Shown here piece by piece: positions 13,743 through 63,490 of a stretch of DNA of 64,000 nt. The position numbers were made by a program, and so were the translations under genes. The notes under the pieces are model-generated. The model did no database searches, was not told the DNA's origin, and saw only the letters and a program-made list of their open reading frames with translations. This DNA is from an uncultured virus (IMG/VR IMGVR_UViG_3300032233_001922) (Duplodnaviria; Heunggongvirae; Uroviricota; Caudoviricetes): the IMG/VR virus record IMGVR_UViG_3300032233_001922; one strand, given 5' to 3'. The stretch's first letter is position 1. Every line of letters starts with the position of its first letter.

Positions 13743-13744
13743 AA

Positions 13745-14525: not shown

Positions 14526-14567
14526 TTTTGTTGTTATTAAGTTTCTTATTCAAATGTAGTAAAAATT

Positions 14568-34698: not shown

Positions 34699-35082
34699 TT
34701 ATTTTAAGTATTCATCAATTATATTTTTAGTCTGTTCAAATCCAACTCCAAAACACGCTTTATATCCTTTTGCGTTTAATTTCTCTATTGTTTCCAATTG
34801 ACCTTTCAAATGGTCGTTTGTACTTGCTTTAATCGTTCCATCTTTTTTAAATGGCGTTGCAACCTTTAACTCTATGAATAATCCGTGAAAACCGTTTCTC
34901 GGTTCAAAAATTATTACATCTGGACATTTGAACCCGTTTTTTTGAATATTTCTATTTCTAACGGATTGCATTTTAGTTAATTTCAAATTTGCAATAGTAT
35001 CAGACATATAATCAATATCTTGGTATTGGTACGACAAATATCTACATACTGCGACTTGTAAGTCATATTCTGGATGTAGCAT
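34699..35082 (-). CDS. VRR-NUC-like nuclease
   Basis: EYDLQ, CPDVII, GLFIELK, Q...KGYKA. Confidence 0.75.
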   Translation of the reverse strand: MLHPEYDLQVAVCRYLSYQYQDIDYMSDTIANLKLTKMQSVRNRNIQKNGFKCPDVIIFEPRNGFHGLFIELKVATPFKKDGTIKASTNDHLKGQLETIEKLNAKGYKACFGVGFEQTKNIIDEYLK

Positions 35083-35726
35083 TATATTCCGTATTTTTTA
35101 GCAAATTCTGGGTGCTTTAAAATTTGCGCTCCCACTACTTTAGCAAAATCATTGTCTGTTGGGTAATGCTCCCCCATATAAACACGACTATAAGCAATAT
35201 CCTCAATTATCTCTTTGCAATAGCTATGGTATGTTGGGTATTTACTTGAAATTACATTTAATATCACATACGCTTCTGCGGTGTGACCCGAAGGAAAAGA
35301 AGGTGTGAAAGCAACATAGCTATTTTGAGGAAATAATTTTAATTTATAATAATTTGCCAATTGATTTGGTCTTGGTCTATTATAATAAAACTTCAATTTC
35401 ATAATAAGATTTTGAATATCTAAAACAATACTTGAAGTCAAGTCCTCTACATCAATTCCTTTCTGTTTGAAAGTAGTATTAATCACTTGTAGCAAATTCC
35501 TATCGTATGCTTTATATCTTTTAAGATAACCTAAATTATCGACATCCTCCATAGATTTTAAACAGTCAACAATTTCATTCAATTCGTCTTTAACTAATTC
35601 AGAATCATTAAGAGGGCAAACGTTTAATTTTAATTTGTCAAACAAGTCATCAACCATACAATTGTGGTCGAGTAATTGCTTTTGTTGAACAGTTGGATTA
35701 CCATAAGTTATTTCGTTAAATTCCAT
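35082..35726 (-). CDS. PAP2-superfamily phosphatase/haloperoxidase-like protein
   Basis: KFYYNRPRP, PSFPSGH, SRVYMGEHYPTD. Confidence 0.85.
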   Translation of the reverse strand: MEFNEITYGNPTVQQKQLLDHNCMVDDLFDKLKLNVCPLNDSELVKDELNEIVDCLKSMEDVDNLGYLKRYKAYDRNLLQVINTTFKQKGIDVEDLTSSIVLDIQNLIMKLKFYYNRPRPNQLANYYKLKLFPQNSYVAFTPSFPSGHTAEAYVILNVISSKYPTYHSYCKEIIEDIAYSRVYMGEHYPTDNDFAKVVGAQILKHPEFAKKYGI

Positions 35727-42223: not shown

Positions 42224-42239
42224 AATATTTGTTTTTTTG

Positions 42240-45200: not shown

Positions 45201-47243
45201 AGTAATAGTATATTCTGGAATTTCTTTATTTTCTACGCTTCTGTTAGTTCCTAAATTGAACCAATCATTTAATTTGTATTTAGAACCAGTTAAAGCACCA
45301 TTGACAAAATGTGAATCCTTGAAAGCAACTGTATTTCGTTCAGCACCGTTAGTCCAATAACCGAACATTTCGTAAATCCAGTTTTTATAAACTTGTTTAG
45401 GTACGGCAATTAACGGTCTTTTTATTGACCCTTGTTTTAGCAACATTGCTAAGTTATGAATAGCAGTCAATGTTTTACCAAAACCAACATCATAAGCAAG
45501 GCATCCAGAATTGTTAATATTTAAAAACGCTAAACCGTTTCTTTGAACTGGTTTTAATCTAAAATTATCTAAATTAAAAATCTTATTGTTAGCTTCAAAA
45601 CCTACTGGAACTTTACTTAAATCGTAAGTAACAAAATTGTTGAATGATTTATTGAAAATTAAATTTAAACCCATTAAATCGGCTCTTGTCAATGCAGTAG
45701 CCAAAAATTCAGAATAATATTTATCGCCTTCAATTTTAGCTAAAATACGTCTTTCGTCTTTTTCTTTTTCTTGGTCTTTTTTATTTTTTTCTTTTGATGC
45801 TTCAGACAAAAATACATTTCCATTTCTGAAATATAAGTTTTTAATGTCATCTACTGTGGTTTTGTCAAGCATATTGTTATTCACATTATAGCCAAACCAA
45901 ATTTCGTATGCTTCAAATAAACTTACAGATTTTTTACCATAATCTTTACCATAATCAACTTGTTTTTTTCGTCTATTATTGCGGTCATAATCGTCATAAT
46001 GTCTTTGAATAGAAACACCACTATCTACATCTAAATCAACAATCATAAATGAATGTGATAAATCGTTTTCTTTAGACAAATATGGTCGTTCAGAAACAAT
46101 AGTATTTCCAAAGTCAAAATTATATTTAGTTTTCAAAGCGTTATCAATTAAAGATTCTTGCCATTGAGCAACCTCAATACCAAATTTTTCAATTAACAAA
46201 TTTTTGTAACCACCTTCAAATTTATCAGTTTCACGGTTATATTTACCAACAAATTTTTCTTTAATTTCAAAAATATCCCCAAAAACATACATATAAATAG
46301 GCACATAATCATCCCCATCGTAACATAATCCTTTTTGTTTCACAAGGTTTACAAGTTCCGCTTCATCAACAGTAGCAAATGAATCTACCTCTTTAAAATT
46401 TCTCTCACTTGCATAATACAATTCTTTGTTTTCATTTTTGATTACCCAAAAAACCTCATTATCATATTCGTTTTTAAATTTTGTTTTAACACCTAAAAGC
46501 GTTCCAGTAGGCACGTTCTTAATGTCTTGAAATTGTTGATTTTTTAAATAAAAACTTTGTGTAGCATAAGCTAATCTACCTCTGTTAGTTTTAGAAGGCA
46601 AAAACCATTTTTCCCAACCAAACATCGGAGAACCAAATTTCTGTTTATAGTAAACGTACCCTTTAATTTCTGGAGTAGTTATCGTTGGACTATAAATTTT
46701 TAAACTTTCCTCAATTGTCAATATTTCTGCAACATCGCTTTTCGGCTCTTTTTCAAAATTTAAAATTTTATTTGATATTGCTACTTCTTTATTAGTCATA
46801 TTTTCTATTCTTTTTTCTTTCCTAACAGTTTCTTTTACGGTTTCTTTTACGGTTTCTTTTACGGTTTCTTTTTGCGTTGGCGATTCTTTTTCACTTGAAG
46901 CACCAACAACTTTTTGAATTTCGTAAGGTATAATAGAATTAATATCATTTATGTTACCAACTGTTATAACTGGATTAATAAACCCACTACCTTGTTTCTC
47001 TTTACTTAAAATTTTGTTGTTTTCAGTATAGAACCACGCACTAAACAATGACTTATCATAATCTGTATCTACTTGCCCCTTAGTTTCAGTCAAATATTTG
47101 TCAAATAGTTGCTCAAATTCATCTTTTAAATTATCGGGTATAAAACCATAAGATAAACCTAAATTTTCTGGGGTTTCTTCTCCCTTATATTTTCTTAACA
47201 ATTCGTAAATTGCTTTATTTCTCGCTATTGCTTTATTATTCAT
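42240..47243 (-). CDS. DarB-like SNF2/SF2 helicase with C-terminal DUF2958-like domain
   Basis: YDVGFGKT, VLDEAHAFKN, LTATPFTNS, EGINLQ, QLEGRIHRQGN; C-terminal DWYIVE...ELDLYF. Confidence 0.85.
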   Translation of the reverse strand: MNNKAIARNKAIYELLRKYKGEETPENLGLSYGFIPDNLKDEFEQLFDKYLTETKGQVDTDYDKSLFSAWFYTENNKILSKEKQGSGFINPVITVGNINDINSIIPYEIQKVVGASSEKESPTQKETVKETVKETVKETVRKEKRIENMTNKEVAISNKILNFEKEPKSDVAEILTIEESLKIYSPTITTPEIKGYVYYKQKFGSPMFGWEKWFLPSKTNRGRLAYATQSFYLKNQQFQDIKNVPTGTLLGVKTKFKNEYDNEVFWVIKNENKELYYASERNFKEVDSFATVDEAELVNLVKQKGLCYDGDDYVPIYMYVFGDIFEIKEKFVGKYNRETDKFEGGYKNLLIEKFGIEVAQWQESLIDNALKTKYNFDFGNTIVSERPYLSKENDLSHSFMIVDLDVDSGVSIQRHYDDYDRNNRRKKQVDYGKDYGKKSVSLFEAYEIWFGYNVNNNMLDKTTVDDIKNLYFRNGNVFLSEASKEKNKKDQEKEKDERRILAKIEGDKYYSEFLATALTRADLMGLNLIFNKSFNNFVTYDLSKVPVGFEANNKIFNLDNFRLKPVQRNGLAFLNINNSGCLAYDVGFGKTLTAIHNLAMLLKQGSIKRPLIAVPKQVYKNWIYEMFGYWTNGAERNTVAFKDSHFVNGALTGSKYKLNDWFNLGTNRSVENKEIPEYTITLVTYQGLEKIGFSEKLHSEIADDFFEILNVKKEVESERAIEKEKEKTESLVGKALAKTEYDIDVLGFDYMVLDEAHAFKNIFASFSIPEEFRDSWRMGKGTQSSRALKAFTLSLYIQKRYNGNVNMLTATPFTNSPLELYSMLSMVGYNYLLNSNINNLFKFLSLFIETQVEYTVDYKQDIVLNTVIKSFKNKNILRDILYRYFDYQDNPIDAGVKRPCKVNFPNKETSTFLQMSDLQIEAQAMVIEEADSYDRETNRGAVGRALSWAKSNAFSPYLIPNIEMYTDLDEFINESPKIKYTIECIKTVKEFHENLKQECSGQVIYSNRGKDLFKDFKKALERECGFVKGVKFGSETVDEVEIITSSGTEAESDRKELIKDAFNEGYVKVIIGTATIQEGINLQKRGTVLYNLDLDWNPTAFKQLEGRIHRQGNMFKYVRIVVPMLQDSLDSFLNQKLDEKAKRIASIWDKENKLNDYSVSDALDPMEIKFNLIKDENKLVAMRLDINKEKAKKEFAVSEDKYKTFDKLNEAIQTFEYYKKSNLVSVDDTVNNFNKYLQMIDKYLSEKDAEWNKTNKKVVTDLKTKIQEVLDMYEDYRINGVWKSLFEFKRACDNRKFIANTKGEFGDYEINYPNLARKYNNDYYAQLSAFGYSFGNLVASYGTAKKLEKNLLQPYGLTMFDDFSNIKREYLDNYEKAKNNLEFLDTEDYKQSVLAEIRNELEKRQGDIGSLEDRVDAFANTNNLLTYPFVDKEADNCEAPKSENLEAVKYIKEELLLTEYLDVDDMDLLTTKKKLNKLKDFFNYSELQVVKSNVSEYSDSIIDLYKYIKEIPELNSTDGEIEKTAYLHYFSSSSDWYIVELGKGDIFDDDNDMQKEAFGYAILNGDMQNSEYGWMNIDEIKKYAELDLYFTPTSLNKIIAKRKGEDEIDEIAHELDKATDIVEPTISSEQTEILEAIETLELLLEYSSKKEKKEINEAIEVLQILLD
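46825..46872. repeat. 4 x 12-bp coding tandem repeat (KETV)
   Basis: AC[A/G]GTTTCTTTT x4. Confidence 0.9.
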
Positions 47244-47448
47244 TCTGAAACCCTTTAAGTGTTACTTCTACATCTGCAAGTACATTGGCAAAATTCCAAC
47301 TTGGAAATTGCTCTAATCTATTGTAAATCATATTTACAACCAATTCCCTACCATCTTTAAACTTTAGTTTATCAGATATTCGGTTGTATTGTTCGGAATC
47401 AAGATTATCTAATACCTTATTGATATTGTCTTTTATTTTTGCGTTCAT
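47236..47448 (-). CDS. hypothetical protein
   Basis: 70-aa ORF between the methyltransferase and helicase genes. Confidence 0.55.
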   Translation of the reverse strand: MNAKIKDNINKVLDNLDSEQYNRISDKLKFKDGRELVVNMIYNRLEQFPSWNFANVLADVEVTLKGFQNE

Positions 47449-47449
47449 T

Positions 47450-50176
47450 TTACTTTTTTCTTAAAATTAATATATCAGTTCCAATTTGTGTTTTTTCAAA
47501 AATATTAGAAGGCAACCTATAAGCATCTACCAACTCGGCAATTTCAAATATTTGTTTTTTAATTTCGTTATACGCTATACCGTTTCTCATAAATGAACTT
47601 GGAATTAAATAAACTCCTAAACCGCCCTTTTTAAGCAAATGTAACGACTGCAAAATAAAAAAGTGTTCTACTTGACCTTTAAAACTAAAATAGCTTGAAT
47701 ATAAGCCAGAAAACTTACCGTAAGGAGGGTTTGCTACAACTAAATCAAAAGGTGCGTTCTTTAACCACGTTTCAGTTCCTTTTCTATTAAGTAATGTATT
47801 AAATCGAGGTTCTTTTAAAAATGCTTTTTCAAAATTGAAGTTATGCAACTCGGCATTTGGAAATTCTCTTTCAAGTATTTTAAAATTATCTTTACTAATC
47901 TCAAAAGCAGTAATATTAGCATCTTTTAAATTTTTAATTAATCTACCGCTTCCCGTTGCTGGTTCTAAAACATTTCCACCTTTAAATCCATAATGTTGTG
48001 CTAAAGCTAACATTTTATCAGCAACTATTTGAGGTGTGAAAAATTCGTATAACTTACCTTTGCCTTGCTTACTACCTTCGGATTCAAAAGACTTTTCTTT
48101 TTTAGAACCTAAATTATCTTTTTTCGGTTCGTCTTTGATTTCATTTTCAAGCGCTAACCTACCATTTTTTATTTCTTCAAGAAATTTTACTCCCGACATT
48201 GGTTGAGTTTTCATTATTCCTTTATCGTCTGAAATAAAAAGATTTACAAAATAACCTCTACGCTTGTCAAATTCTAATTTTACTCTTGCTTTTAAATTTA
48301 AGTTACCTATTTTGTAATCTAAAATTTTACCATCAAAATCTTTAATTTCAGTAATAGGACAAAGTGAGTAATGTTCCATTTCTTTTATTGGAAGCGGTTT
48401 TGAATAAGTTACAACACCATATTGATAATTTTGTTGAGTAAACCTCAAAAAGTTATCTTTTGGGTATGTTCCAATATCAAACGGTCTAACTGTTAAAACA
48501 TATTCGTATTCATTGTCAATCGCACCACCATCGGCATATATACCACTATAGCCACCTACTGCACCATCTACTTCAACATCAAGTAAATCATTGTAATTGT
48601 TCAAATCCCTTGAAGGACTGTTACCGCTTTTGGCATCTTTAACTAAACTTTCAGTTTTCCCACCATTAGCCATTTTTTCAAAATTATAGTTTTTGTAATT
48701 TCTGTCTTTAAAGTTTTTTGATTTGAATATTTTTGAATCTCTATTATCCGAATCCTCTGTAATTTCAGCGTAATATTCTATATGGTTTGGCGTTTCAATA
48801 GTAAAATTATAAACTTCAAATCCGTTTTTTGTTTCTCCTTTAAAAGTTCCAGTAGTCCACCTATTAGTATTATTCCATCTTGCATCAACTTTACTCCCTA
48901 TTTTTGGTAAATTTTGTTTAACTTCTCCACCTTTTTTGTAAATACCTTTTTTTTCTGGATATAATTCATAATATCTTTTTTCAGTACCTATCCATAAAGG
49001 AATTTTTGAATTTTCTATTTCATTGTTTTCAATGTAATTGTGAACATCTTTTTCATTGTGAAAAACTTTATCTACATTTTCAATAAAAATATTATTTCTA
49101 TTTTCGGAAGTCGTATAAACGCTCAATCCTAAATAAGTGTGGTATCTATTATTTTCATTATGATTAGATTCTCTAACATTAGAAACTCTATCATATAATT
49201 GTAAATCTTTTTTGGTTAAATCTGAAATATTATCTAAACTTCCACCTTTTTTCAACCCAGCTTTTTTAAGTAAAGTATAATATTCTGGATTTTCAAATAA
49301 ATGGTCTTTTACAATTTTCATTTGTTCACGTTTGCTTGAAGTGTGTTCGCTTTCCGCTTCCATACCTAAACGAACTTGTTTTTTTAATTCAGCTAAAGGC
49401 ACTTGATGAATATCCGTAATATCCCTTAATGAAAAACTTTCGGCTAAATGACCGCCACTTTTATATTCTTCTTCTTCTTCATATCCGTAATCTCCAGCAG
49501 TATTTAATGCTCTAAAACTTTCCGAATCTATTGAATAACATTGCTCTTGACTTAATTCATCAGTTACCTCTGTTAATTCACTTTGTAATTTATCTTGTTC
49601 AGATATTAATTTTGCTCTTTCTTTAAAAGACAAATCCCCATCGTATGAATAGACATCATTACCCAAATTCATTTTTTCTATTTCTAAAATCCTATTTGAT
49701 AGTTTTTTAACTTTATTTATAATTCTTAATGGCACTTTAAGTAAATGACCTCCACCATTCATTTGCATCATAATTTCGTGGTCTGTCATAGTCTTACCAC
49801 CGTACTTGTAACTTGCTCCAGTATGTTTAATGCTTTTAGGCATTTCCCCACCATCGGCAAAAGAAACACCGCCACCACGTTTATTTATTTCTGATAAAAT
49901 TTCACGGTTCGTGAGCATCTTGCCTTCAAACTCTCTTTTTGTAGTATCGCTTACCGCTGGGGCAGTAATAACAACTTCTCCACCTTGCATCTCAAGTGGT
50001 TGCCCAGTTGATTTATTAACTGCTTTAATACCGCCTTCTGCGTGAGTTCTACCAACTAAATAGCCAGACAAAGAACCCTTGTTGTGTATCATTGTTTGAC
50101 CTTCTCTTTTACCAACAAGCACACCACCAGTCGGAGTTGCTTCTGCTTTATTTTCGGTTAAATTTTCTTTTCTCAT
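47450..50176 (-). CDS. polyvalent protein: DUF5661-like, DarA-C-like and C-terminal N6-adenine methyltransferase (DarB-type) domains
   Basis: EFFTP, VLEPATGSG, NPPY, AYRLP...TDIL; RPFDIGTYPK...YSKPL; ESEHT...DHLFENPEYY; start moved to MRKENL. Confidence 0.8.
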   Translation of the reverse strand: MRKENLTENKAEATPTGGVLVGKREGQTMIHNKGSLSGYLVGRTHAEGGIKAVNKSTGQPLEMQGGEVVITAPAVSDTTKREFEGKMLTNREILSEINKRGGGVSFADGGEMPKSIKHTGASYKYGGKTMTDHEIMMQMNGGGHLLKVPLRIINKVKKLSNRILEIEKMNLGNDVYSYDGDLSFKERAKLISEQDKLQSELTEVTDELSQEQCYSIDSESFRALNTAGDYGYEEEEEYKSGGHLAESFSLRDITDIHQVPLAELKKQVRLGMEAESEHTSSKREQMKIVKDHLFENPEYYTLLKKAGLKKGGSLDNISDLTKKDLQLYDRVSNVRESNHNENNRYHTYLGLSVYTTSENRNNIFIENVDKVFHNEKDVHNYIENNEIENSKIPLWIGTEKRYYELYPEKKGIYKKGGEVKQNLPKIGSKVDARWNNTNRWTTGTFKGETKNGFEVYNFTIETPNHIEYYAEITEDSDNRDSKIFKSKNFKDRNYKNYNFEKMANGGKTESLVKDAKSGNSPSRDLNNYNDLLDVEVDGAVGGYSGIYADGGAIDNEYEYVLTVRPFDIGTYPKDNFLRFTQQNYQYGVVTYSKPLPIKEMEHYSLCPITEIKDFDGKILDYKIGNLNLKARVKLEFDKRRGYFVNLFISDDKGIMKTQPMSGVKFLEEIKNGRLALENEIKDEPKKDNLGSKKEKSFESEGSKQGKGKLYEFFTPQIVADKMLALAQHYGFKGGNVLEPATGSGRLIKNLKDANITAFEISKDNFKILEREFPNAELHNFNFEKAFLKEPRFNTLLNRKGTETWLKNAPFDLVVANPPYGKFSGLYSSYFSFKGQVEHFFILQSLHLLKKGGLGVYLIPSSFMRNGIAYNEIKKQIFEIAELVDAYRLPSNIFEKTQIGTDILILRKK

Positions 50177-50380
50177 ATTTTTATCATAATAAAAAACAAA
50201 TATAATCAATGTAATTGAAACTACAAAAATATATTATTTAAAATAAAAATTTAAAAGTTCTTTTAGGTTTAAATAATAACTTGAACAACAGTTAGTTTTC
50301 TTTTAATTTTACTATCATTTGTAATATTATTTATTTTTTAGTTACATTTGTTCAATTAATATTAATTAAAATTAGAAATT

Positions 50381-51615: not shown

Positions 51616-52893
51616 TTATTTTACTAATTTGTCTATAATCGCTTTGAATTGTTTTGCAATACCCTCCCACTTCATAGCGGAAACTTTGTTGTAAGCATTT
51701 TCTACTTTATCTTTTACCATTTCTTGTAATTCTAGTTGGTCGTTTGGCAAATTGTAAACAACCTCACATAAAGTTTTAACTTCCATTGGATTTGTAGTAA
51801 GTCTTATTTTTTCAAAGTCATTTACAAACACCGCTTGTTGGCTAAACATAAAATTCAAAGTGTTCTCTCCATTGTCGGTTATTTCCGTAATAGAAGTATG
51901 CTTTGGACAAACCACAAGTGTTTTTGTAGCCATTGCTTCGGTAATTGTCAATCCCCAACCTTCCGCAGTTGTAGTTGTAATAAAACAATCGAATGAATTG
52001 TAAATTTTATTCAATTCCTCTAAAGTACAACCTTTATTTTCTGAATAGTCTTTTGGCAGTATTACATCTTTACCAACTTCTAATCCTACTCTATCACATA
52101 ATCTGTAAATGTTTATTCCCATTGGGTCTAAAGGGTTGCAATGTAAATAAAGTAAGGCATTAGCACCGCTTGTGTGTTTGAACATAGCAAACCCCATAAT
52201 TAAGCTACCAAAATCCTTTCTTACTTGATTTCTATTTACACTACCAAATACAAACACATCTTCACTTCCGAAAAGTTCTTTTTTTGCTTTTAGTTTATCA
52301 GCATCAGAATAAGGGTAAAAATCGCTTGTATTAGTTCCGTGCGGTATAATCTTAATCTTTTTGAATTGCGTGTCAGAAATCAAAGGTTTCATCACGCCTT
52401 TTGCGTATTGAGTGTATGTAATTACTTCATCAAAGAAATTTAAAACTTTTAAATCGGCTAATCTTGGCTCACTATCTATTGGAAAGTAAATCATTGATTT
52501 AAAGTTTGGTCGATTTTCTTTTCTTTTAGTGTTCTTTACTTCTAATAGTTGCTCCGACATTGCGTTAATTACCTCTACATCTTGTAAAAAAAACAAAGCG
52601 TCAAAGTCGTTTTGATAAATCAATTTCAGCAACTCTATTCTTCTGTAAACATCTGCTCTTGTATCTTTGTCGCCAGTCTGTAAAGCTGGTATAACTTTTA
52701 CGTTTGGTAGATAATCATAAGTTGCTTTGCTTCTGTCGTTAAGTCCAAAAATAACAATGCTTAATTTTTTGTCTTTTGCCCATTCATCTACAAGTTCTTT
52801 AGCTACTGCACCAAACCCAGTTGTGCAATTCCAATCAGCATATACTAATAATGATTTTTGTTTAACCTCTTTTTTGCGGTGTACGACTTTCAT
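51616..52893 (-). CDS. GT4-like glycosyltransferase
   Basis: TGFG, IPHG, NRNQVRK, EGWGLTITEAMA. Confidence 0.85.
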   Translation of the reverse strand: MKVVHRKKEVKQKSLLVYADWNCTTGFGAVAKELVDEWAKDKKLSIVIFGLNDRSKATYDYLPNVKVIPALQTGDKDTRADVYRRIELLKLIYQNDFDALFFLQDVEVINAMSEQLLEVKNTKRKENRPNFKSMIYFPIDSEPRLADLKVLNFFDEVITYTQYAKGVMKPLISDTQFKKIKIIPHGTNTSDFYPYSDADKLKAKKELFGSEDVFVFGSVNRNQVRKDFGSLIMGFAMFKHTSGANALLYLHCNPLDPMGINIYRLCDRVGLEVGKDVILPKDYSENKGCTLEELNKIYNSFDCFITTTTAEGWGLTITEAMATKTLVVCPKHTSITEITDNGENTLNFMFSQQAVFVNDFEKIRLTTNPMEVKTLCEVVYNLPNDQLELQEMVKDKVENAYNKVSAMKWEGIAKQFKAIIDKLVK

Positions 52894-52933
52894 AATTTGT
52901 TGTTTTTAAGTTTCTTATTGCAAATATAATAAA

Positions 52934-53560
52934 TTAATCTATTCCTTGTTCTCTCCTATCAGACAAACTCATAACATTATAAGTTGGAGGGCAATTTTCT
53001 GCTTTTTTGTGTTTACCATTCTGCATCATATTTTGTATCAAAGCGAAATCATGACCATATTCTGCATCGTGAATAGGCATTTGTTTTAAAAAGTCAGTTC
53101 TTACGATTAATTCGCTATGCCCTATCATACCATATTGCAGTTGTGCATTTCTTATTGCGTTTCTCGGTGCGACAAAACTATCAAAATAAACAAAATCTAA
53201 ATCAGTTCCTTCTATTTGAGAAAGGTAGTTCTCAAAATGATTCGGTAATATAATGTCATCATTGGCAAAGAAAGTAAAGTATTTACCTTCTGCTAATCCT
53301 ATGTTAATATTTGTAATTGCAAATCCGTGTCCTCCTTTATTTATTGGATTATTGGCTATATAAAAATGATTTCCTTTAGCTTGACAATCATTCACAATAT
53401 CATTAAAATATCCACTATCAATAAAATCTTGCATTACTGGACAACCATCTCCAATTACAAGTGCTTCCCAATTATTAGCGGTTTGATTGGCAATACATTC
53501 TATTGCTCTTATAGTTCTTTGCGGTCTGCCAAAGCAAGGCATTGATACTGTTAATCTCAT
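52934..53560 (-). CDS. GT2-like glycosyltransferase
   Basis: VSMPCFGR, IGDGC, FANDD. Confidence 0.8.
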   Translation of the reverse strand: MRLTVSMPCFGRPQRTIRAIECIANQTANNWEALVIGDGCPVMQDFIDSGYFNDIVNDCQAKGNHFYIANNPINKGGHGFAITNINIGLAEGKYFTFFANDDIILPNHFENYLSQIEGTDLDFVYFDSFVAPRNAIRNAQLQYGMIGHSELIVRTDFLKQMPIHDAEYGHDFALIQNMMQNGKHKKAENCPPTYNVMSLSDRREQGID

Positions 53561-53868
53561 AGTTGTTTTTCTTTTTTATATTCTATTTCTTGTATTCCAG
53601 ATGGATATGCAATTAATACAAATTCTTCATTAAAATAATTCTCGTATTCGATTTTAAATCTTCCGTTTGACATTTGTGTTATTATGCAATAAGGTTCATA
53701 AACTCCTTTGTGGCAATCTCTTTTTTGAACTCCTTTAGGTCTTGGAACATAATTAACTCCGCAAACTCTTATGTAATGTAATTCCATAATTTTATTTATC
53801 TTTTTTCACATATCCAACTAACACAAACTTTCCGTAGCACCATTTGTAGTATGGTATTTCATCTTCTT

Positions 53869-54552
53869 TCATAACTCCAAACTTTCAAATACATTACAAA
53901 TTCTGTTTACCGCTTCTCCAGTAAAGTTTTGTTTATGATAATCATTTTCCTTTATGTACTTGGCTGGATTGCCAACGTAAACTCCAAAGCATTGTGGTTG
54001 TAGTTTTTTAGGTATGATAGCACCCATACCAATCATTGCGTAACTTCCTATTTTAGAAAATTGATGACAAATGCTCCCTAAACCCATATTTACCGAATAA
54101 CCCAATAGGGAATGACCGCCAATTAATACATTACAACTAATTGTGCAATTATCATAAATCGTTGAATCGTGTCCAACGTGGCTACCTCTTAGCATAATGA
54201 TATTATTGTATAATATGGTTGGTTTCTCGCATCCAGCGTTAATAGTTACATATTCACGAATTACGTTATTATTTCCAATTTCAACCCCTTTGTTTGGCTC
54301 TCCAAAGAACTCTTTGTGTTCTGGTTCTGTACCGATTGAACAAAACGCTTCAAATCGGTTGTTACTTCCTATTTTAGTGTTGCCAGTTATTACACAAAAA
54401 GCACCAATGTAATTATCATCTCCTAACTGAACATCATCTCCAATAATTGCAGTAGGGTGTATGAAGTTGCCACCACCTCTAATTATAAATTTATAACTTC
54501 CGTTAAGAGTTGAGTGTTGATTTTTGTTTTGATATGGTGTAGTATCTTCCAT
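53869..54552 (-). CDS. hexapeptide-repeat acyltransferase, LpxA-like
   Basis: IHPTAII, IREYVTINAG, HVGHD, GNPAK. Confidence 0.8.
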   Translation of the reverse strand: MEDTTPYQNKNQHSTLNGSYKFIIRGGGNFIHPTAIIGDDVQLGDDNYIGAFCVITGNTKIGSNNRFEAFCSIGTEPEHKEFFGEPNKGVEIGNNNVIREYVTINAGCEKPTILYNNIIMLRGSHVGHDSTIYDNCTISCNVLIGGHSLLGYSVNMGLGSICHQFSKIGSYAMIGMGAIIPKKLQPQCFGVYVGNPAKYIKENDYHKQNFTGEAVNRICNVFESLEL

Positions 54553-58503: not shown

Positions 58504-59370
58504 TTAGTTTATTTCTTTCAATGTTTTCTCAATCAATTTACGTAGGTCATCGTGTATGATATATTGCAAAGCGGTTTCAAGTACTAATTTTGAGGTAATT
58601 AACTTTGACTTTAAAGTTTCTACATTATCAGAAATAAGTTGTTCTTTTTTCTCAATAGTCTTTATAATCGTAGCTTGTTTTTCAACTTGCTTAGTAACTG
58701 ATTTAAAATCGGCATCGATTACTTTTAATTCGTTAATCTTTTTTTGATTTTCTATCGCTTCTAATCTCAACTTATCGTTTTCCAAACGCAAGTTTTCTTT
58801 TTCATCTGCTAACGCTTTTTCCAACAATTCTTTTTCTTCTTTGGCTACCCTATCGGATTCCACTTTAGCGCCTAATGTTGTTTTAGCATAGTTTAAAACT
58901 CCGACAAATGCTTCTTCGGTAATTATATCTAACTGTAAAGTGTTTGGGTCTAAAACCTCAATGTAAGGTAGCATTAATTCATAACGCTTTGCTTTGAGTT
59001 CCGCTTTTCTTTTTTGGTCTTGAATTTCAGCAAAACGCTCTTGAAGTTCTAAATGTTTTTCTGCTGGTTCTACAAGCGCAGTTAAAGTTTTCGCAATACC
59101 ATCAATTAACCTACCTTCATTCAAAGATTGTTCTTTTAAAGACTTTCTTGTTTTTTCAATTTCAATTCTTTTGGCTTTTAAAAGCAATCTACCTTCTCTC
59201 GCTTCTAACATTAAGTCTTTTTGACTTTCGTCTGTTACAACTATTGCATTTGCTTTTTCGTTCCACTCGGTAGCGATTGTAGTGAACTCGTTAAATTTTT
59301 CAATAATGTAATCTGATTTTGATTTTTCAATCAATGAATTTTCTGCTAATTTTGTTATTTCTTGGTTCAT
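58504..59370 (-). CDS. coiled-coil phage protein
   Basis: AREGRLLLKAKRIEIEKTRKSLK...IDGIAK. Confidence 0.6.
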   Translation of the reverse strand: MNQEITKLAENSLIEKSKSDYIIEKFNEFTTIATEWNEKANAIVVTDESQKDLMLEAREGRLLLKAKRIEIEKTRKSLKEQSLNEGRLIDGIAKTLTALVEPAEKHLELQERFAEIQDQKRKAELKAKRYELMLPYIEVLDPNTLQLDIITEEAFVGVLNYAKTTLGAKVESDRVAKEEKELLEKALADEKENLRLENDKLRLEAIENQKKINELKVIDADFKSVTKQVEKQATIIKTIEKKEQLISDNVETLKSKLITSKLVLETALQYIIHDDLRKLIEKTLKEIN

Positions 59371-59398
59371 TTTTTTTTAATTTAATTGTTGTTGTTTA

Positions 59399-59581
59399 TT
59401 AAAACGGACAATCCGATTTTTTAGGTTTTAATATTAATTGTTGGTACTCACGTTTAATTTTTTCTTGTATCGCTTCACGAATGAACTTACCCACATCAAC
59501 ATTTAAAGACTTCATTTTTTGAAGCGTATTTAATTGCGTTTCTGAAATCCGTATCACTTTGGTTTTAGTAAGTAGTTTCAT
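59399..59581 (-). CDS. ribbon-helix-helix DNA-binding protein (putative)
   Basis: KVIRIS strand followed by helices VGKFIREAIQEKI. Confidence 0.6.
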   Translation of the reverse strand: MKLLTKTKVIRISETQLNTLQKMKSLNVDVGKFIREAIQEKIKREYQQLILKPKKSDCPF

Positions 59582-59584
59582 AAT

Positions 59585-59623
59585 TGCAATACATTTATAG
59601 CGGTTAGCAAGTAGTTACAAGCA
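59585..59623 (+). other. attI-like first junction of the cassette array
   Basis: GGTTAGCAAGTA-GTTACAAGCA: GTT core without a preceding hairpin; its 3' side is complementary to the R'' box at 60257-60266. Confidence 0.55.
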
Positions 59624-60229
59624 AGCTGCAAACATCCCGACCTGATTAACCTGATTTGCGTTATAACTGCCATTTGCACAATTCAGAATATGTAATCCTA
59701 ATTCTGAATTAACAGCGTTTCTATCTTCTAATTTCTTTGAATGAGCGTGGTTTTTTTTACCTACATATTGCTTCATCATTGTTCCTACTTCATCCTTTGG
59801 CAATTCTATTTTAGGAATTTTAAAATTTGACCATAAATAATGCCTCCCAACTTCTGCCGTTGGTGGTATAAAATATTCGTAATAACTAACTACATTTTCA
59901 ACACAAAACTTTCCTTTAAAGAATGTTTTTAAGAATATTATTTCTTGCCATAATTCCATTTTAGGATAACGGCTTTCAGTAATATAATTTATAAAATAGT
60001 TTGCTCTGCTATGCGTTTGGCAAGGTGGCGAAGTCCAGATAAAATCAAACTCTGAATAATGGTCTAATAAATATTTGTGAGCATCAGCAACCACAACATT
60101 ATCATTCGGAAACAAAGCTTTGTATTTTTCAGCAATTTTAGCATCAAACTCAACCGCTGTAATTTCGTGGTCGTTGCCCCATAATTTACGGTTTCCACCA
60201 ATCCCACAATATAAATTTAGTATTTTCAT
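59615..60229 (-). CDS. DNA cytosine-C5 methyltransferase-like protein (cassette 1)
   Basis: LNLYCGIGG, SPPCQ, ENV. Confidence 0.8.
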   Translation of the reverse strand: MKILNLYCGIGGNRKLWGNDHEITAVEFDAKIAEKYKALFPNDNVVVADAHKYLLDHYSEFDFIWTSPPCQTHSRANYFINYITESRYPKMELWQEIIFLKTFFKGKFCVENVVSYYEYFIPPTAEVGRHYLWSNFKIPKIELPKDEVGTMMKQYVGKKNHAHSKKLEDRNAVNSELGLHILNCANGSYNANQVNQVGMFAACL

Positions 60230-60259
60230 AAGTCCATTTTGTTTAAATTAAAAGCCTGC

Positions 60260-60348
60260 TTGTAACAAGCGTTTGGAGCAAGTTGCAGAAACACTTTCTT
60301 TCTATTCAAGCTCTCGGTGGCAACCTGCACCAAGCGCAAGCGTTAGCA
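60260..60348 (+). repeat. attC-like site 1
   Basis: TTGTAAC...GCGTTTGGAGCAAGTTGC/GCAACCTGCACCAAGCGC...GTTAGCA. Confidence 0.75.
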
Positions 60349-60354
60349 GTAATA

Positions 60355-61176
60355 CTACATTCCATCTCCGAATAGAGTTTTCTGCGTTAAATCTTTTTCT
60401 TTTCTTTTTTCTTCCCACGCTTTTTTAATACGTTCTTCAATAATATTACAGTATTCATTTGATATTTCACTTCCTATCCAGTTGCGGTTATTTAAAATAC
60501 TCATTTTTGCTACCGTTCCACTTCCCATAAAGCAATCATAAATTAAATCATTTTCATTGCTCCAACTTATTATGTGGTCATTTGCTAATTGTTCAGGAAA
60601 TTGTGCAGGATGCCCTTTTGTTCCTGCGTTTGTAGGTATTTCCCAAACATTACCTTTTTGTTTATACTCCTTTACAGCATCATTTTTATGACCTTCTGTT
60701 GGTGTGTTTTGTGAGTTTGTTTGGTAAAATGTTCTTCCATTGGTTTTATTTCCTTTGGTTTTGCACTCTACCATTATTGGATTAAATGTGTTTGGTTTAC
60801 CTTTACTAAAAACAAACATATACTCAAACTCTTGCTCATATCTGTTATGAGTTAATGGTATGTAATTTATTTTCCTATACATCATTGTATCGTGCAAATT
60901 AAAACCAATCTCTTTGAAGTAAAGTGCTTGTTTAAAACTCGTTCCACTTTCAGTTCCTTTTACTGTTGCATCGCCTACAATCCAAATAACTACACCACCT
61001 TGTTTTGTAATTCTATACAATTCCTTTGCTATATCTTCAAAAGGAAAAGAATATCCATTATAAGTTCGTAATCCATCATAAGGCGGAGAAGTTACCGTTA
61101 AATCCACAAAGCAATCAGGCATATTTGCCATTGTTTCTAAATTGATTTCATTGTAATTTTTATTTATCTCAATCAT
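60355..61176 (-). CDS. DNA N4-cytosine/N6-adenine methyltransferase, beta class (cassette 2)
   Basis: VTSPPY, HPAQFP, DCFMGSGT. Confidence 0.9.
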   Translation of the reverse strand: MIEINKNYNEINLETMANMPDCFVDLTVTSPPYDGLRTYNGYSFPFEDIAKELYRITKQGGVVIWIVGDATVKGTESGTSFKQALYFKEIGFNLHDTMMYRKINYIPLTHNRYEQEFEYMFVFSKGKPNTFNPIMVECKTKGNKTNGRTFYQTNSQNTPTEGHKNDAVKEYKQKGNVWEIPTNAGTKGHPAQFPEQLANDHIISWSNENDLIYDCFMGSGTVAKMSILNNRNWIGSEISNEYCNIIEERIKKAWEEKRKEKDLTQKTLFGDGM

Positions 61177-61274
61177 ATTTTTAATTTTTCAAATTAATAT
61201 TTGCCATCGCTCAAAAAAGAAAAGAAAAAGGTTCAGTTCTCCGAATGAGCATTTGTGGTTAATTACCGTACTAC

Positions 61275-61369
61275 TGCTAACACGTGCTATAAGCAAGTTT
61301 GCCAATAACGTTTGTGCTAAATTTGACATTTCTGCAAGGCAAACCTGCTCATAGCACCATCCGTTACTG
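61275..61369 (+). repeat. attC-like site 2
   Basis: TGCTAAC...GTGCTATAAGCAAGTTTGCC/GGCAAACCTGCTCATAGCAC...GTTACTG. Confidence 0.8.
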
Positions 61370-61375
61370 GCTATG

Positions 61376-61612
61376 TTACTCACGATAGTCATCATATATT
61401 TCGATAGAGCCATCGTTAATAATTACTCCTCCAAATTTATTTGAAAAAGAAATAAGTTCTTCCAAAGAATTAATTTCTATCTCTGGCTGTTTATTTGATT
61501 TTCTAAATTTTAAATAATCAGAATGTTCAAATTCAAATCCTATTTCTTGAAGTTTTAACCTATCTTCTTCATTTGGATAAAAATAACCTGTTGTTGATAA
61601 TGTGAATTTCAT
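61376..61612 (-). CDS. hypothetical protein (cassette 3)
   Basis: 78 aa, IEINSLEEL...IEIYDDYRE. Confidence 0.65.
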   Translation of the reverse strand: MKFTLSTTGYFYPNEEDRLKLQEIGFEFEHSDYLKFRKSNKQPEIEINSLEELISFSNKFGGVIINDGSIEIYDDYRE

Positions 61613-61638
61613 TTTGTTTGTGGATTAAAAAACACAGC

Positions 61639-61769
61639 CAGTAACATACGCTACACAATAGTTGGGTTAATTGTTTAATTTAAAGTTTGTTTTGCACTTT
61701 TATAATCTGTCATTATCCGAAGTCTGGGTGTGTGCTTTTCCCAGCCATCGTGTAGCTTTTCCGTTAGTG
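61639..61769 (+). repeat. attC-like site 3
   Basis: CAGTAAC...GCTACACAATAGTTGGG/CCCAGCCATCGTGTAGC...GTTAGTG. Confidence 0.75.
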
Positions 61770-62165
61770 GAAATTCGAGCGAACAATCTCACGACCTAAT
61801 TTTATAATGAAATAATCTTCGTGTCCAATCGCTCCCCAATCAGTAAAACCCATTCCTATTTCAATTCCTTTACATTCTAACGTGACTTTAGGACTGTTTT
61901 TATTGTAGCCATTAGTAAACTCAACCCAATCGTATTTTTTAAAAACCGCTTCCCAATTTGATTGGTTATTTTCGTATTCAATTTCATTACATAATCTTTG
62001 AATCCAATATCTTTTGACTTCCCTATATTCTTCCGTTTTCTCCCCAGAAAGAATCATATCGAACCATTGTTTTTTTAAAGTCAATTTCAATACCCGATTA
62101 GAACTGCCACTAACACTTGCTAAACAAGATTCGGGTATTGGTGTATTATTTAAGGTCTGTTTCAT
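61764..62165 (-). CDS. ASCH-domain protein (cassette 4)
   Basis: LTLKKQWFDMILSGEKTEEYRE...FTNGY. Confidence 0.8.
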   Translation of the reverse strand: MKQTLNNTPIPESCLASVSGSSNRVLKLTLKKQWFDMILSGEKTEEYREVKRYWIQRLCNEIEYENNQSNWEAVFKKYDWVEFTNGYNKNSPKVTLECKGIEIGMGFTDWGAIGHEDYFIIKLGREIVRSNFH

Positions 62166-62243
62166 TTTTGTTATTATTAGTTATTAATCGAAAATCTGTT
62201 TTTTATTTTGTCCCGAACCTCGTTTAGCAAGGGAACGTTATGT
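62108..62243 (+). repeat. attC-like site 4
   Basis: CACTAAC...CTTGCTAAACAAGATTCGGG/CCCGAACCTCGTTTAGCAAG...GTTATGT. Confidence 0.8.
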
Positions 62244-62248
62244 GTAAT

Positions 62249-62440
62249 TTATATGATACAACCCATTCCTTTGTATTCTTGTTTTTTACAGTTTTTACAT
62301 TCGTGTAAATTTTGAAAGCAAATCATTTCTCCATCTTTAGGAATTGGTGTATATCTATCAATGTTTTTCCATTTGTGAAACCCTAAACTACACATAACAT
62401 ACGTTTGTAGCAAGAGGACTTTAGTCTTTAATTTAAACAT
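62249..62440 (-). CDS. small Cys/His protein (cassette 5)
   Basis: CSLGFHKW...ECKNC. Confidence 0.6.
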   Translation of the reverse strand: MFKLKTKVLLLQTYVMCSLGFHKWKNIDRYTPIPKDGEMICFQNLHECKNCKKQEYKGMGCII

Positions 62441-62522
62441 AATTTTGTACTTTTATAATTAGTCATTAATTCAATAATCAGGATTTATTTTTTCCTCCTG
62501 CTACAAGCGTCCACCGTTAAAA
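62392..62522 (+). repeat. attC-like site 5
   Basis: ACATAAC...ACGTTTGTAGCAAGAGGA/TCCTCCTGCTACAAGCGT...GTTAAAA. Confidence 0.75.
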
Positions 62523-62753
62523 CATATTCCCAGTAATTTGCATATTTGCCAACATCGTATCTTCATTTTCATCTGACTTCATTTGTAATGAAATACTTTC
62601 GCCCCAACACACACAATTAACGTTTCCTTCTATATCTATTTCAAACCTTATAAATCCAGCCGAAACTGGATTAAAGTTTTTAAAGTCTGAATGATTATTT
62701 AATCCAGAAAATACAATAATTTTTTTGTCGTTTGTTTTAATATACTTTGCCAT
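62517..62753 (-). CDS. hypothetical phage protein
   Basis: PVSAGF...CWGESISL. Confidence 0.65.
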   Translation of the reverse strand: MAKYIKTNDKKIIVFSGLNNHSDFKNFNPVSAGFIRFEIDIEGNVNCVCWGESISLQMKSDENEDTMLANMQITGNMF

Positions 62754-62758
62754 AAGTT

Positions 62759-63490
62759 CTATTTTTTCAATTGTTTAAGTTTAGTTTTAAGTTCCGTTGG
62801 AAATTCATTTTTAAGTACCCAATCTAAATAACCCATATCGTTAACTACTGGCTTGTGCATATTTTTACCAAACGACCAACATACTTCCCCGTTTTCATTT
62901 ATGTAAGTTTTACCCCCTACATCGTTTCTTTTACGATTTCCTTGACAATAAACATCTATTTCAGCTGGTGTTGTTTCTGGCTTGTTTTCTAATTGGTGCA
63001 TTAATATTTCAAACGTTGCTCTAACATCGTTTAAAGCATCGTGCGAACCCTCTAAATCTTTTCCAGTATATCTTTTGTAAACCGCCCCAATATTGTTTGG
63101 ATTAAGTAGGCGTTCATACTTTAAAACATCTACTAAATTTAACTCCCAAGTCGGGAACTCAATATCGCATCTACCAAACTCCTCAATCAAAAGAGGTATA
63201 TCATAAGAATCAGAATTGTAACCGCCAATATCACATCCTTCAAAATAATTAAACAATGATTTTGCTATTTGTGAAAAGTAAGGCGCATCTTTAATTGTTT
63301 CGTCTGTTATTCCGTGTACATCTGATGCTTCTTTTGGAATTGGTATTAGTGGTTTTACAAGAATGTTTTTTTCTTCTTTGTTTCCATCTAAATCAATTTT
63401 AATACAAGCTATTTGTACTATCCTATCGTTTTGCACAGATACTCCAGTAGATTCTAAATCAAAAAAAATAATTGGTTTTGTGATTTTCAT
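62759..63490 (-). CDS. DEDDh 3'-5' exonuclease (DnaQ/epsilon-like)
   Basis: FDLESTG, VHGITD, GYNSDSYD, HDALND. Confidence 0.9.
   Translation of the reverse strand: MKITKPIIFFDLESTGVSVQNDRIVQIACIKIDLDGNKEEKNILVKPLIPIPKEASDVHGITDETIKDAPYFSQIAKSLFNYFEGCDIGGYNSDSYDIPLLIEEFGRCDIEFPTWELNLVDVLKYERLLNPNNIGAVYKRYTGKDLEGSHDALNDVRATFEILMHQLENKPETTPAEIDVYCQGNRKRNDVGGKTYINENGEVCWSFGKNMHKPVVNDMGYLDWVLKNEFPTELKTKLKQLKK

What the first reader, a model, noticed from the sequence alone, without database searches (positions are those of the whole stretch)
59615..62516. All cassette genes are antisense to the canonical cassette direction, and two start inside the hairpin loop
Seen: hairpin polarity runs on the + strand, but all five ORFs are on the - strand, matching the leftward transcription of the flanking phage genes. 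The TAA stops of 59615-60229, 61764-62165 and 62517-62753 are formed by the GTTA core itself. The annotated starts of the ASCH gene (62165) and the Cys/His gene (62440) lie in the loop of their own attC-like site, so translation would run through the stem arm. Known: canonical cassettes usually carry ORFs on the top strand, read from Pc near attI. Inference: this is a phage-adapted cassette pool, expressed by read-through from the distal end, with recombination sites that also code for protein.
Basis: partly seen in the sequence, partly recalled or inferred. Interest (0 to 1): 0.7.

Follow-up and report, generated by a model that had tools for sequence, protein, structure and literature searches.

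The report
Phage gene cassettes with reversed hairpin sites
A Flavobacterium-type phage carries five small genes, each preceded by an integron-like DNA hairpin that sits on the opposite side of the gene from the textbook arrangement. The same layout recurs in hundreds of sites in related phage contigs, often next to a Xer-like recombinase.

Summary
Window 59614-62519 contains five hairpin sites (TAACA, 17-20 bp stem, loop, stem, CGTTA on the + strand) and one hairpin-less GTTA junction. They separate five ORFs on the - strand. Three stop codons are the TTA of a GTTA core, and two ATGs lie in hairpin loops.

- In related viral contigs, homologous hairpins share only the flank downstream in the ORF sense in 28 pairs, and only the upstream flank in 1.
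- The array starts with a hairpin directly after a resident gene's stop codon and ends without one.
- The bases flanking the cores match published attC top and bottom strands.

So each cassette is a hairpin plus the gene behind it, the reverse of the canonical integron cassette. Loop start codons are common across the family: 93 of 140 long sites, against 10.4 expected.

These are not canonical attC sites. The spacers are 5 versus 1-2 nt, no bulged bases appear in the consensus stem, and one G·T wobble is nearly invariant. The arrays lie beside a XerA-like recombinase lacking the IntI insertion (175 sites upstream, 2 downstream). The window has no recombinase. Read-through expression is untested. 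Prior art covers only a CALIN in Polaribacter phage P12002L.

The parts
59614..59617 (+). Terminal hairpin-less GTTA junction (site 1). It is the end of the array on the side that lies downstream in the ORF sense. A second GTTA lies at 59603-06.
   Evidence: The outer bases GTTACAAGCA are complementary to TGCTTGTAAC at the left core of site 2.
59615..60342 (-). Cassette A. ORF 59615-60229 (204 aa) has C5 DNA methyltransferase motifs in its N-terminal part only. Hairpin site 2 (60263-60345, short class) lies upstream of it in the ORF sense.
   Evidence: Pfam PF00145, E 1.9e-07, residues 1-78. PHROG 363. Stop codon is the TTA of the core.
60343..61363 (-). Cassette B. N6_N4 DNA methyltransferase ORF 60355-61176 (273 aa) plus hairpin site 3 (61278-61366, short class, arms 61284-303 and 61338-57).
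   Evidence: PF01555, E 6e-43. Of 418 relatives in viral contigs, the best 80 loci were kept. Contigs from other metagenomes break at 60341/60342, 61278 and 61366.
61364..61763 (-). Cassette C. 78-aa ORF 61376-61612 of unknown function plus hairpin site 4 (61642-61766, long class, arms 61650-66 and 61740-56).
   Evidence: PHROG 11889, E 1e-05.
61764..62237 (-). Cassette D. ORF 61764-62165 (133 aa, PHROG 625, weakly ASCH-like) plus hairpin site 5 (62111-62240, long class). The ATG at 62165 lies in the loop, and a 24-residue leader is read through the arm and core.
   Evidence: Homologues align from about residue 24.
62238..62516 (-). Cassette E. Cys/His-rich ORF 62249-62440 (63 aa) plus hairpin site 6 (62395-62519, long class). 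One ATG lies in the loop at 62440. A second in-frame ATG lies inside the core (GTTATG in the ORF sense, 62393-95).
62517..62753 (-). Resident phage gene (78 aa). Its stop codon TAA forms the core at which the array begins. Relatives carry this gene without any hairpin.
   Evidence: L002 and L003 align with the window from 62778 to 62517 and then jump to 58620.
58504..59581 (-). Flank absent from the relatives: a DUF6290/RHH-like ORF (59399-59581) and a 288-aa coiled-coil ORF (58504-59370). Only the last ~40 residues of the 288-aa ORF exist as a stand-alone ORF in L003.

Best explanation
Window 59615-62516 is a five-cassette, recombinase-less array of an integron-like gene-capture system found in phages of Bacteroidota.

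The cassette. Each mobile unit, read on the gene's sense strand, is C + hairpin + GTTAnnnn + gene + nnnnTAA. The hairpin therefore lies upstream of its gene. The crossover falls at TAA|C on the sense strand, which is G|TTA on the window's + strand. In integron terms the genes lie on the 'bottom' strand, the reverse of the canonical cassette in which the ORF is followed by its attC.

Long and short hairpins. In the long (~123 nt) hairpins the loop supplies the 5' leader, the start codon and the first 15-25 codons. These are read through the 3' arm and the GTTA core. Short (~85 nt) hairpins are non-coding, and their genes start after the core.

The platform. In related contigs the arrays end with a terminal hairpin followed by a co-directional XerA-like tyrosine recombinase. 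This is the presumed catalyst. The terminal hairpin would act as the attI equivalent.

This window. The phage has no recombinase. Its array was probably inserted in trans at a secondary TAAC site formed by the stop codon of gene 62517-62753.

Shown: anatomy, polarity, linkage, covariation, and association with the recombinase.
Inferred: single-strand folding, catalysis by the Xer-like enzyme, use of the loop ATGs, and read-through transcription.
For: 1. The hairpins are real. 16 of 18 stem pairs show compensatory changes, in 35 short-class and in 55 long-class sites.
2. Cassette signature. The outer 7 nt of the right core of site n complement the left core of site n+1. The mean is 4.41 of 7 (mode 6) over 259 neighbouring pairs, against 2.18 for a site's own two cores and 2.44 for site n+2. 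All five window junctions show it.
3. Constant polarity relative to genes. 131 of 137 sites near methyltransferase relatives and 175 of 177 near recombinase relatives.
4. Linkage. Among 218 homologous hairpin pairs, only the flank downstream in the ORF sense is shared in 28 and only the upstream flank in 1 (both in 49, neither in 139). One methyltransferase block has the same upstream hairpin in L020, L021, L022 and G002 (L024 and G003/L026 carry different ones). It has six different downstream hairpins.
5. Array ends. The array begins with a hairpin directly after the resident gene's TAA (62516|62517, the breakpoint against L002/L003). It ends without a hairpin at 59614.
6. Strand-specific sequence. 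The sense strand reads TAAC-G...T-GTTA, like the six published attC bottom strands, all of which have T before GTT. The + strand reads TAAC-A...C-GTTA, like their top strands (Table S3). HattCI also assigned the ORF-sense strand as the bottom strand for P12002L_attC1.
7. The sense strand folds as well or better. A G·T wobble is present at one stem position in 33 of 35 and 54 of 55 sites. ssDNA energies are -19.5 vs -15.5 at site 3 and -17.3 vs -11.9 at site 5.
8. Recombinase. 175 sites lie upstream and 2 downstream of 80 viral recombinase loci. 43 of 54 loci with at least 3 kb upstream have a site, against 2 of 69 downstream. None of 20 loci has a complementary core after the recombinase gene.
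9. Loop starts. 93 of 140 long sites, against 10.4 expected from shuffles.
10. Stops. 61 of 155 ORFs end with the TAA of the TAAC core.
11. Contigs from other metagenomes break exactly at the cores.
Against: - No recombinase is present in the window (98 ORFs scanned) or in the nearest record G001.
- Linkage is not absolute. 139 of 218 homologous hairpin pairs share neither flank. The hairpin-gene link is also broken at the other core (G003/L026, and L005 versus the window).
- Hybrid hairpins show crossovers inside conserved loops (L004; a contig of run X3).
- Block-based linkage rests on a single methyltransferase family.
- The extra spacer bases lie on the AAC arm of the presumed recombined strand. 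Canonical extrahelical bases lie on the opposite arm (PMC5027507, passages read).
- Sites 2, 4 and 6 fold about equally well on both strands.
- G·U wobbles on the sense strand would equally fit an RNA-level role.
- The left boundary against relatives is at 58620, not 59614, so the empty target site was not directly seen.
- The L092 orthologue of the ASCH-like gene starts after the core.
- No experiment shows that any of this recombines.
Confidence: 0.7

Rival explanations
1. Canonical orientation. The - strand is the top strand, each gene is followed by its own attC, and the crossover is at G|TT on the gene's sense strand. On this view the reader misjudged polarity.
For: AAC...GTT reads the same on both strands. 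The extra unpaired bases lie on the GTT arm of the + strand, where canonical bottom strands carry extrahelical bases (PMC5027507). Some hairpin-gene links are broken exactly at that core. ORFs ending in ...TAAC resemble canonical ORFs that end in R''.
Against: Flank linkage is 28:1 the other way. One methyltransferase cassette has six different downstream hairpins. The array starts with a hairpin after a resident gene and ends without one. Long hairpins encode the N-terminus of the gene downstream of them. The bases flanking the cores match published top and bottom strands the other way round.
Confidence: 0.07
2. An ordinary IntI-dependent CALIN. On this view these are cassettes captured from a bacterial integron, recombined by a host IntI, and simply carried in reverse.
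For: Qi et al. 2023 (PMC9892861) reported CALINs in virulent phages, including Polaribacter phage P12002L. That phage's sites are of this family, and the terminal junction they named attC2 recombined with IntI1. The AAC/GTT cores and the shifted complementarity are integron hallmarks.
Against: The true family member P12002L_attC1 was the only one of six sites that did not recombine with IntI1. The geometry differs from the 5-6 nt spacers and extrahelical bases of attC. Arrays sit next to a XerA-like enzyme that lacks the IntI insertion. Of 23 recombinase relatives in bacterial genomes, only 3 have any site nearby.
Confidence: 0.1
3. The hairpins act mainly as RNA or regulatory elements, for example in processing, transcript stability, or translational control of the start codon in the loop. 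Gene modules would then be swapped by homologous or illegitimate recombination at conserved hairpin sequences, as proposed (recalled, not checked here) for stem-loops in T4-like phages.
For: G·U wobbles are conserved on the transcribed strand. Start codons lie in the loops. Loop motifs are conserved and hybrid hairpins exist. All sites are co-oriented with transcription.
Against: This does not explain the site-shifted complementarity of the outer core bases. It does not explain breakpoints at single-base resolution at TAAC/GTTA. It does not explain the 175:2 placement next to a tyrosine recombinase. An RNA role could coexist with recombination.
Confidence: 0.12

Closest known systems
Integron gene cassettes and attC sites (IntI-dependent)
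   Same: Arrays of single promoter-less genes are separated by imperfect hairpins bounded by inverse cores (...AAC and GTT...). The crossover is inferred at G|TT. The outer core bases of a cassette's two ends are complementary. Stem sequences vary while the structure is kept. A tyrosine recombinase sits at one end of the array and is transcribed away from the top-strand direction.
   Different: Genes lie on the opposite strand, so the hairpin precedes the gene. Spacers are 5 versus 1-2 nt rather than 5-6 on each arm. The consensus stem has no bulged bases and carries a near-invariant G·T wobble. Long sites carry the start codon and N-terminal codons. The associated recombinase lacks the IntI-specific insertion and is closest to XerA. 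The site next to the recombinase is itself a hairpin. No Pc-type layout is possible because the genes point towards the recombinase.
CALIN of Polaribacter phage P12002L (Qi et al. 2023, PMC9892861; abstract, section 3.4 and supplementary file 1 read)
   Same: Same site family: TAACA...CGTTA on the strand opposite the genes, with methyltransferase cassettes in a phage of Flavobacteriia. No integrase is annotated in that phage either.
   Different: [quoted passage not shown] Its family-type site (attC1) failed in the IntI1 assay.
Integrons with an inverted integrase gene (for example Treponema; recalled, not checked here)
   Same: They depart from the divergent intI/cassette layout. The integrase and the cassette genes are co-directional.
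   Different: As recalled, in those integrons intI lies upstream of the cassette genes and the attC polarity still follows the genes. Here the recombinase lies downstream of the genes, and the genes are reversed relative to the sites.
Xer-dependent pdif modules of Acinetobacter plasmids (PMC7399989, search listing and abstract start only)
   Same: Gene modules are bounded by sites for a Xer-type tyrosine recombinase.
   Different: As recalled, pdif sites are short double-stranded XerC/XerD sites rather than 80-125 nt hairpins with shifted core complementarity.

Membership tests
Integron (complete) | An IntI integrase carrying the IntI-specific insertion in the catalytic domain | tested here: not met
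   No PF00589 hit among 98 window ORFs or in G001. Recombinases beside related arrays match TIGR02249 in two stretches that skip roughly profile positions 181-238, at 155-170 bits against a cut-off of 265. The best PDB match is XerA 4A8E at 1.4e-44, against IntI4 2A3V at 3e-27.
Integron attC site | Inverse cores ...AAC / GTT..., crossover at G|TT, and cassette ends with complementary outer bases | tested here: met
   TAAC and GTTA are invariant in the five window sites. Shifted complementarity averages 4.41 of 7, against 2.18 for a site's own cores. Breakpoints fall at the cores.
Integron attC site | An unpaired central spacer of 5-6 nt on each arm, and extrahelical bases on the arm opposite AAC in the bottom strand (PMC5027507) | tested here: not met
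   Spacers are 4-6 nt on one arm and 1-2 nt on the other in 131 of 137 and 175 of 177 sites. The 18-bp consensus stems show no bulge. A G·T wobble is present in 33 of 35 and 54 of 55 sites.
Integron cassette | The ORF lies on the top strand and is followed by its own attC | tested here: not met
   Hairpins travel with the flank downstream in the ORF sense, 28:1. Array ends agree. Long hairpins hold the downstream gene's start codon.
Integron attC site | Recombined by IntI in a strand-specific way | not testable with these tools
   Literature only. P12002L_attC1, a member of this family, gave no recombinants with IntI1. The hairpin-less terminal junction 'attC2' did (PMC9892861, section 3.4 and Table S3).
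CALIN (cluster of attC sites lacking an integrase) | At least two attC sites, detected by the IntegronFinder or HattCI models, close together with no intI nearby | tested here: inconclusive
   Five clustered sites and no integrase in 64 kb. The attC covariance models are not available here. Rfam has no match.
Xer / XerA-type tyrosine recombinase system | A Xer-like recombinase acting on a short double-stranded dif-like site | tested here: inconclusive
   The recombinase is XerA-like: NF040815 at 206 and 190 bits, below the cut-off of 220. No dif-like site was sought. The sites found are long hairpins.

The most novel reading that the evidence does not exclude
Phages of Bacteroidota, including contigs of jumbo-phage size with more than 30 cassettes, carry their own integron-like gene-capture platform. 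It is run by a XerA-like recombinase without the IntI insertion. Cassettes are built the other way round, with the hairpin first and the gene second. The hairpin doubles as translation start and N-terminal coding sequence. The platform's own attachment site is a hairpin. Smaller recombinase-less phages, such as this window, receive cassette strings in trans at TAAC stop-codon sites. This would be a second, independently organised branch of hairpin-based cassette recombination.
Probability: 0.5. Interest if true: 0.85.

Novelty: new variant of a known kind. Interest (0 to 1): 0.72.

Why it matters
Integrons are the textbook case of recombination on folded single-stranded DNA. Their logic, in which promoter-less genes are inserted in one orientation behind Pc, depends on attC polarity.

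A large phage-borne family that keeps the core chemistry (AAC/GTT, shifted complementarity) but reverses the gene, lets the site encode protein, and uses a Xer-like enzyme has three consequences:
1. Hairpin-based cassette capture would not be restricted to IntI.
2. Comparing the two systems would give a natural test of which attC features set strand choice.
3. It would show how virulent phages exchange anti-restriction methyltransferases and other small accessory genes.

It also matters for annotation. Integron finders tuned to canonical attC sites see only fragments of such arrays, with confused directions, as happened for P12002L.

Tried and rejected
- The nearest record, G001, ends inside cassette A at window 59700, so it could not show an alternative array.
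- FpV9-type Flavobacterium phages share only the exonuclease gene.
- Block-based linkage on 255 inter-site blocks gave informative pairs for one methyltransferase family only. Cassettes are too diverse for this approach. I switched to hairpin-centred linkage.
- Rfam gave no match in 59300-62800 at E up to 1.
- The sigma-70-type promoter scan found 21 sites against 19.4 expected, so nothing above chance. It does not model Bacteroidota promoters. I saw a TAnnTTTG-like motif on the + strand of short-class loops, but its spacing to a TTTG is too short by my recollection of the consensus. I draw no conclusion from it.
- Sequencing runs: only one run holds most of the stretch, and it may be the source sample. 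The RNA-library run X20 held only contigs of the methyltransferase cassette, so nothing can be said on transcription, strand or ends.
- ASCH-like relatives (64 loci): only 6 have any site nearby, and most of those lack the family's spacer pattern. That gene family is mostly not cassette-borne.
- I tested whether the recombinase gene is itself a cassette. None of 20 loci has a complementary core after it, so this idea was rejected.
- Structure prediction, complex prediction and the large protein searches were not used, because they would not bear on polarity.
Full report
**What is in the window**

The window looks like a Flavobacterium-type phage. It is 30.8% G+C and its exonuclease gene is about 68% identical in DNA to those of FpV9-type phages. 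Every long ORF from 9690 to 64000 is on the - strand.

Between 59614 and 62519, five - strand ORFs are separated by five imperfect hairpins. On the + strand each hairpin reads TAACA, then a 1-5 nt spacer, a 17-20 bp stem, a loop of 33-76 nt, the returning stem, a 5-7 nt spacer, and CGTTA. Only TAACA and CGTTA are invariant. A sixth GTTA, with no hairpin, closes the array at 59614.

A scan of all 64 kb gave 6 hits. Four are these sites, one pairs cores of two neighbouring sites, and one lies elsewhere at 41419. Site 4 needed wobble-tolerant scoring to be found.

The stops at 59615, 61764 and 62517 are the TTA of GTTA cores. The ATGs at 62165 and 62440 lie in the loops of sites 5 and 6 and read in frame through the stem arm and the core.

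The five genes are:
- a C5 methyltransferase-like protein, matching in its N-terminal part only
- an N6_N4 methyltransferase
- a 78-aa protein of unknown function
- a PHROG 625 protein with only a weak ASCH match (E 0.013, below the cut-off)
- a Cys/His-rich 63-aa protein

No tyrosine recombinase was found among 98 window ORFs.

**Why polarity needed a test**

AAC...GTT reads the same on both strands. The integron hallmark that I saw at once is also symmetric. That hallmark is that the outer bases of the right core of site n complement the left core of site n+1. Neither feature says which hairpin belongs to which gene, so I looked for relatives.

**Relatives without the array**

Two viral contigs, L002 and L003, have an exonuclease 88% identical in protein. 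Both carry the gene 62517-62753 followed within 18 nt by the next gene. Their homology to the window runs from 62778 to 62517 and resumes at 58620.

The array therefore begins, in the gene's sense, with a hairpin directly after the resident gene's TAA (62516|62517). It ends without a hairpin. That pattern is expected if the inserted units are 'C + hairpin ... gene ... TAA'.

The other boundary was not seen cleanly. The relatives also lack 58621-59614, so the empty target site was not observed.

**A large family**

The best 80 loci holding relatives of the N6_N4 methyltransferase (418 confirmed) carry many such sites. In them, 131 of 137 sites have the long spacer on the AAC side of the gene's sense strand. 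Two contigs hold large arrays: G003 (170 kb) has at least 31 sites over 30 kb, and G002 (210 kb) has at least 18.

The site consensus on the sense strand is TTGnnnnTAAC-G ... T-GTTAnnnnCAG. Lengths cluster near 85 and 123 nt.

Stem covariation is strong. 16 of 18 pairs show double changes in 35 short-class sites and in 55 long-class sites. One pair is U-A in 55 of 55 long sites. Another is G·U in 33 of 35 short and 54 of 55 long sites.

Over 259 neighbouring site pairs the shifted outer complementarity averages 4.41 of 7, with a mode of 6. The seventh position is the conserved T·G. The control values are 2.18 for a site's own two cores and 2.44 for site n+2.

**Which hairpin travels with which gene**

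Among 218 pairs of homologous hairpins, 28 share only the flank downstream in the gene's sense and 1 shares only the upstream flank. 49 share both and 139 share neither. In the 28, the bases left of TAAC differ while GTTAnnnn is the same.

One methyltransferase block occurs with the same upstream hairpin in four contigs and with six different downstream hairpins.

Contigs from other metagenomes break at 60341/60342, 61278 and 61366, which are the cores.

The unit is therefore hairpin plus the gene behind it, with the crossover at TAA|C on the sense strand. This equals G|TTA on the window's + strand.

Three further lines of evidence agree:
- The six attC bottom strands printed in Table S3 of Qi et al. 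2023 all have T before GTT, and four have G after AAC (the two TJE1 sites have A), like our sense strand. Their top strands read AAC-A...C-GTT, like our + strand.
- HattCI assigned the gene-sense strand as the bottom strand for the family member P12002L_attC1.
- The sense strand folds as well or better as ssDNA.

Some evidence points the other way:
- The link is sometimes broken at the other core (G003/L026, and L005 versus the window).
- Hybrid hairpins show crossovers within conserved loops (L004; a contig of run X3).
- The extra spacer bases lie on the AAC arm of the presumed recombined strand. Canonical extrahelical bases lie on the opposite arm (PMC5027507, passages read).

**Recombinase**

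G002 and G003 each carry a 266-298 aa tyrosine recombinase at the end of the array that is downstream in the gene sense. It is co-directional with the cassette genes.

A search with their alignment returned 80 viral loci. In these, 175 sites lie upstream of the recombinase and 2 downstream. 175 of 177 sites have the same polarity. 43 of 54 loci with at least 3 kb upstream have a site, against 2 of 69 with at least 3 kb downstream.

The nearest site lies 174-500 nt upstream in many loci. None of 20 loci has a complementary core after the recombinase gene, so the enzyme is not itself a cassette. The last hairpin looks like the platform's own site.

The enzyme scores best against NF040815 (XerA/integron integrase), at 206 and 190 bits against a cut-off of 220. 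It matches the IntI model TIGR02249 in two pieces that skip the region of the IntI-specific insertion. Its best solved relative is XerA 4A8E at 1.4e-44, with IntI4 at 3e-27.

Smyshlyaev et al. 2021 (PMC8138268, one passage read) note that this insertion is essential for integron function but is not fully conserved in their 'integron-like' subgroup.

In bacterial genomes, 23 relatives of the recombinase were found, mostly in Bacteroidota. Only 3 have any site nearby. The system therefore appears mainly phage-borne.

**Sites that code**

For long-class sites followed by an open frame of at least 40 codons, the first ATG of that frame lies in the loop in 93 of 140 unique sites. Shuffles give 10.4. 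For short-class sites the figures are 3 of 32 against 1.4.

The leaders resemble one another, for example ...QKPQLNIGAV... and ...ALHIADVSGS... The conserved V is the GTT of the core.

In the window this applies to cassettes D and E. For D, homologues and PHROG 625 align only from about residue 24. The 79% identical orthologue in L092 starts just after the core. The next ATG in the window would cut into the conserved domain. The loop ATG, or a TTG at codon 26 or 28, is therefore the likely start. For E, a second in-frame ATG lies in the core.

ORF ends follow a rule too. 61 of 155 ORFs stop with the TAA of TAAC, and most others stop within 15 nt of it.

**Comparison with what is known**

Qi et al. 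2023 (PMC9892861; abstract, section 3.4 and supplementary file 1 read) reported CALINs in virulent phages, including Polaribacter phage P12002L with methyltransferase cassettes. Its sites belong to this family and its genes are likewise on the opposite strand.

They noted 'attC sites with divergent directions'. The family-type site, attC1, was the one of six that did not recombine with IntI1. The hairpin-less terminal junction, which they named attC2, did.

I found no paper describing the reversed cassette build, the coding loops or the Xer-like platform. The searches were made, and they cover only open-access full text and bioRxiv.

**Verdict**

It is unproven on read-through expression. It needs one correction: these are attC-like sites of a distinct, probably Xer-driven system, not canonical attC sites.

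Noticed in passing
window 39848-50209: Three very large - strand ORFs follow one another. A 919-aa protein combines DarA_C, DUF5661 and N6_Mtase/Eco57I domains. A 1667-aa protein is an SNF2/helicase. A 791-aa protein carries LPD11. Together they resemble 'large polyvalent protein' anti-restriction modules.
   Followed up: no
window 13338-15386, 35082-35726 and 51616-54552: The phage carries likely auxiliary metabolism genes. These are a sulfotransferase, an APS-kinase-like protein, a cytidylyltransferase-like protein, a PAP2 phosphatase, two glycosyltransferases and a hexapeptide acyltransferase.
   Followed up: no
window 58504-59370; L003 2032-2160: The 288-aa coiled-coil ORF shares only its last ~40 residues with relatives. 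In them, that part is a stand-alone 42-aa ORF. The long N-terminal part and the RHH-like ORF 59399-59581 are extra in this phage.
   Followed up: partly
L004 3930-4040; contig of run X3 (record 8): These are hybrid hairpins. The two arms come from different hairpin types and no longer pair fully, with the break inside the conserved loop motif of the short class. Exchange therefore also occurs within loops.
   Followed up: partly
G003 contig 85146-116572 (L088, L089, L084): A 30-kb array holds at least 31 sites. It includes five related cassettes of 238-255 codons. Each is led by a 118-nt hairpin with the ATG 42 nt before the core and a near-identical leader. The array ends in such a methyltransferase cassette followed by the recombinase.
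   Followed up: partly
L002 2400-3030; L003 1525-1773: Between the exonuclease gene and the 78-aa gene the relatives carry one or two small ORFs that the window lacks. No hairpins flank them. This neighbourhood also varies by other means.
   Followed up: no
window 59603-59617 and 61363-61378: GTTA cores are duplicated 11-12 nt apart at two junctions. The second copy at 61375-78 supplies the stop codon of the 78-aa ORF.
   Followed up: no
G001 contig end = window 59700: The nearest public record of this phage stops inside cassette A. This suggests that assemblies break within the array.
   Followed up: no
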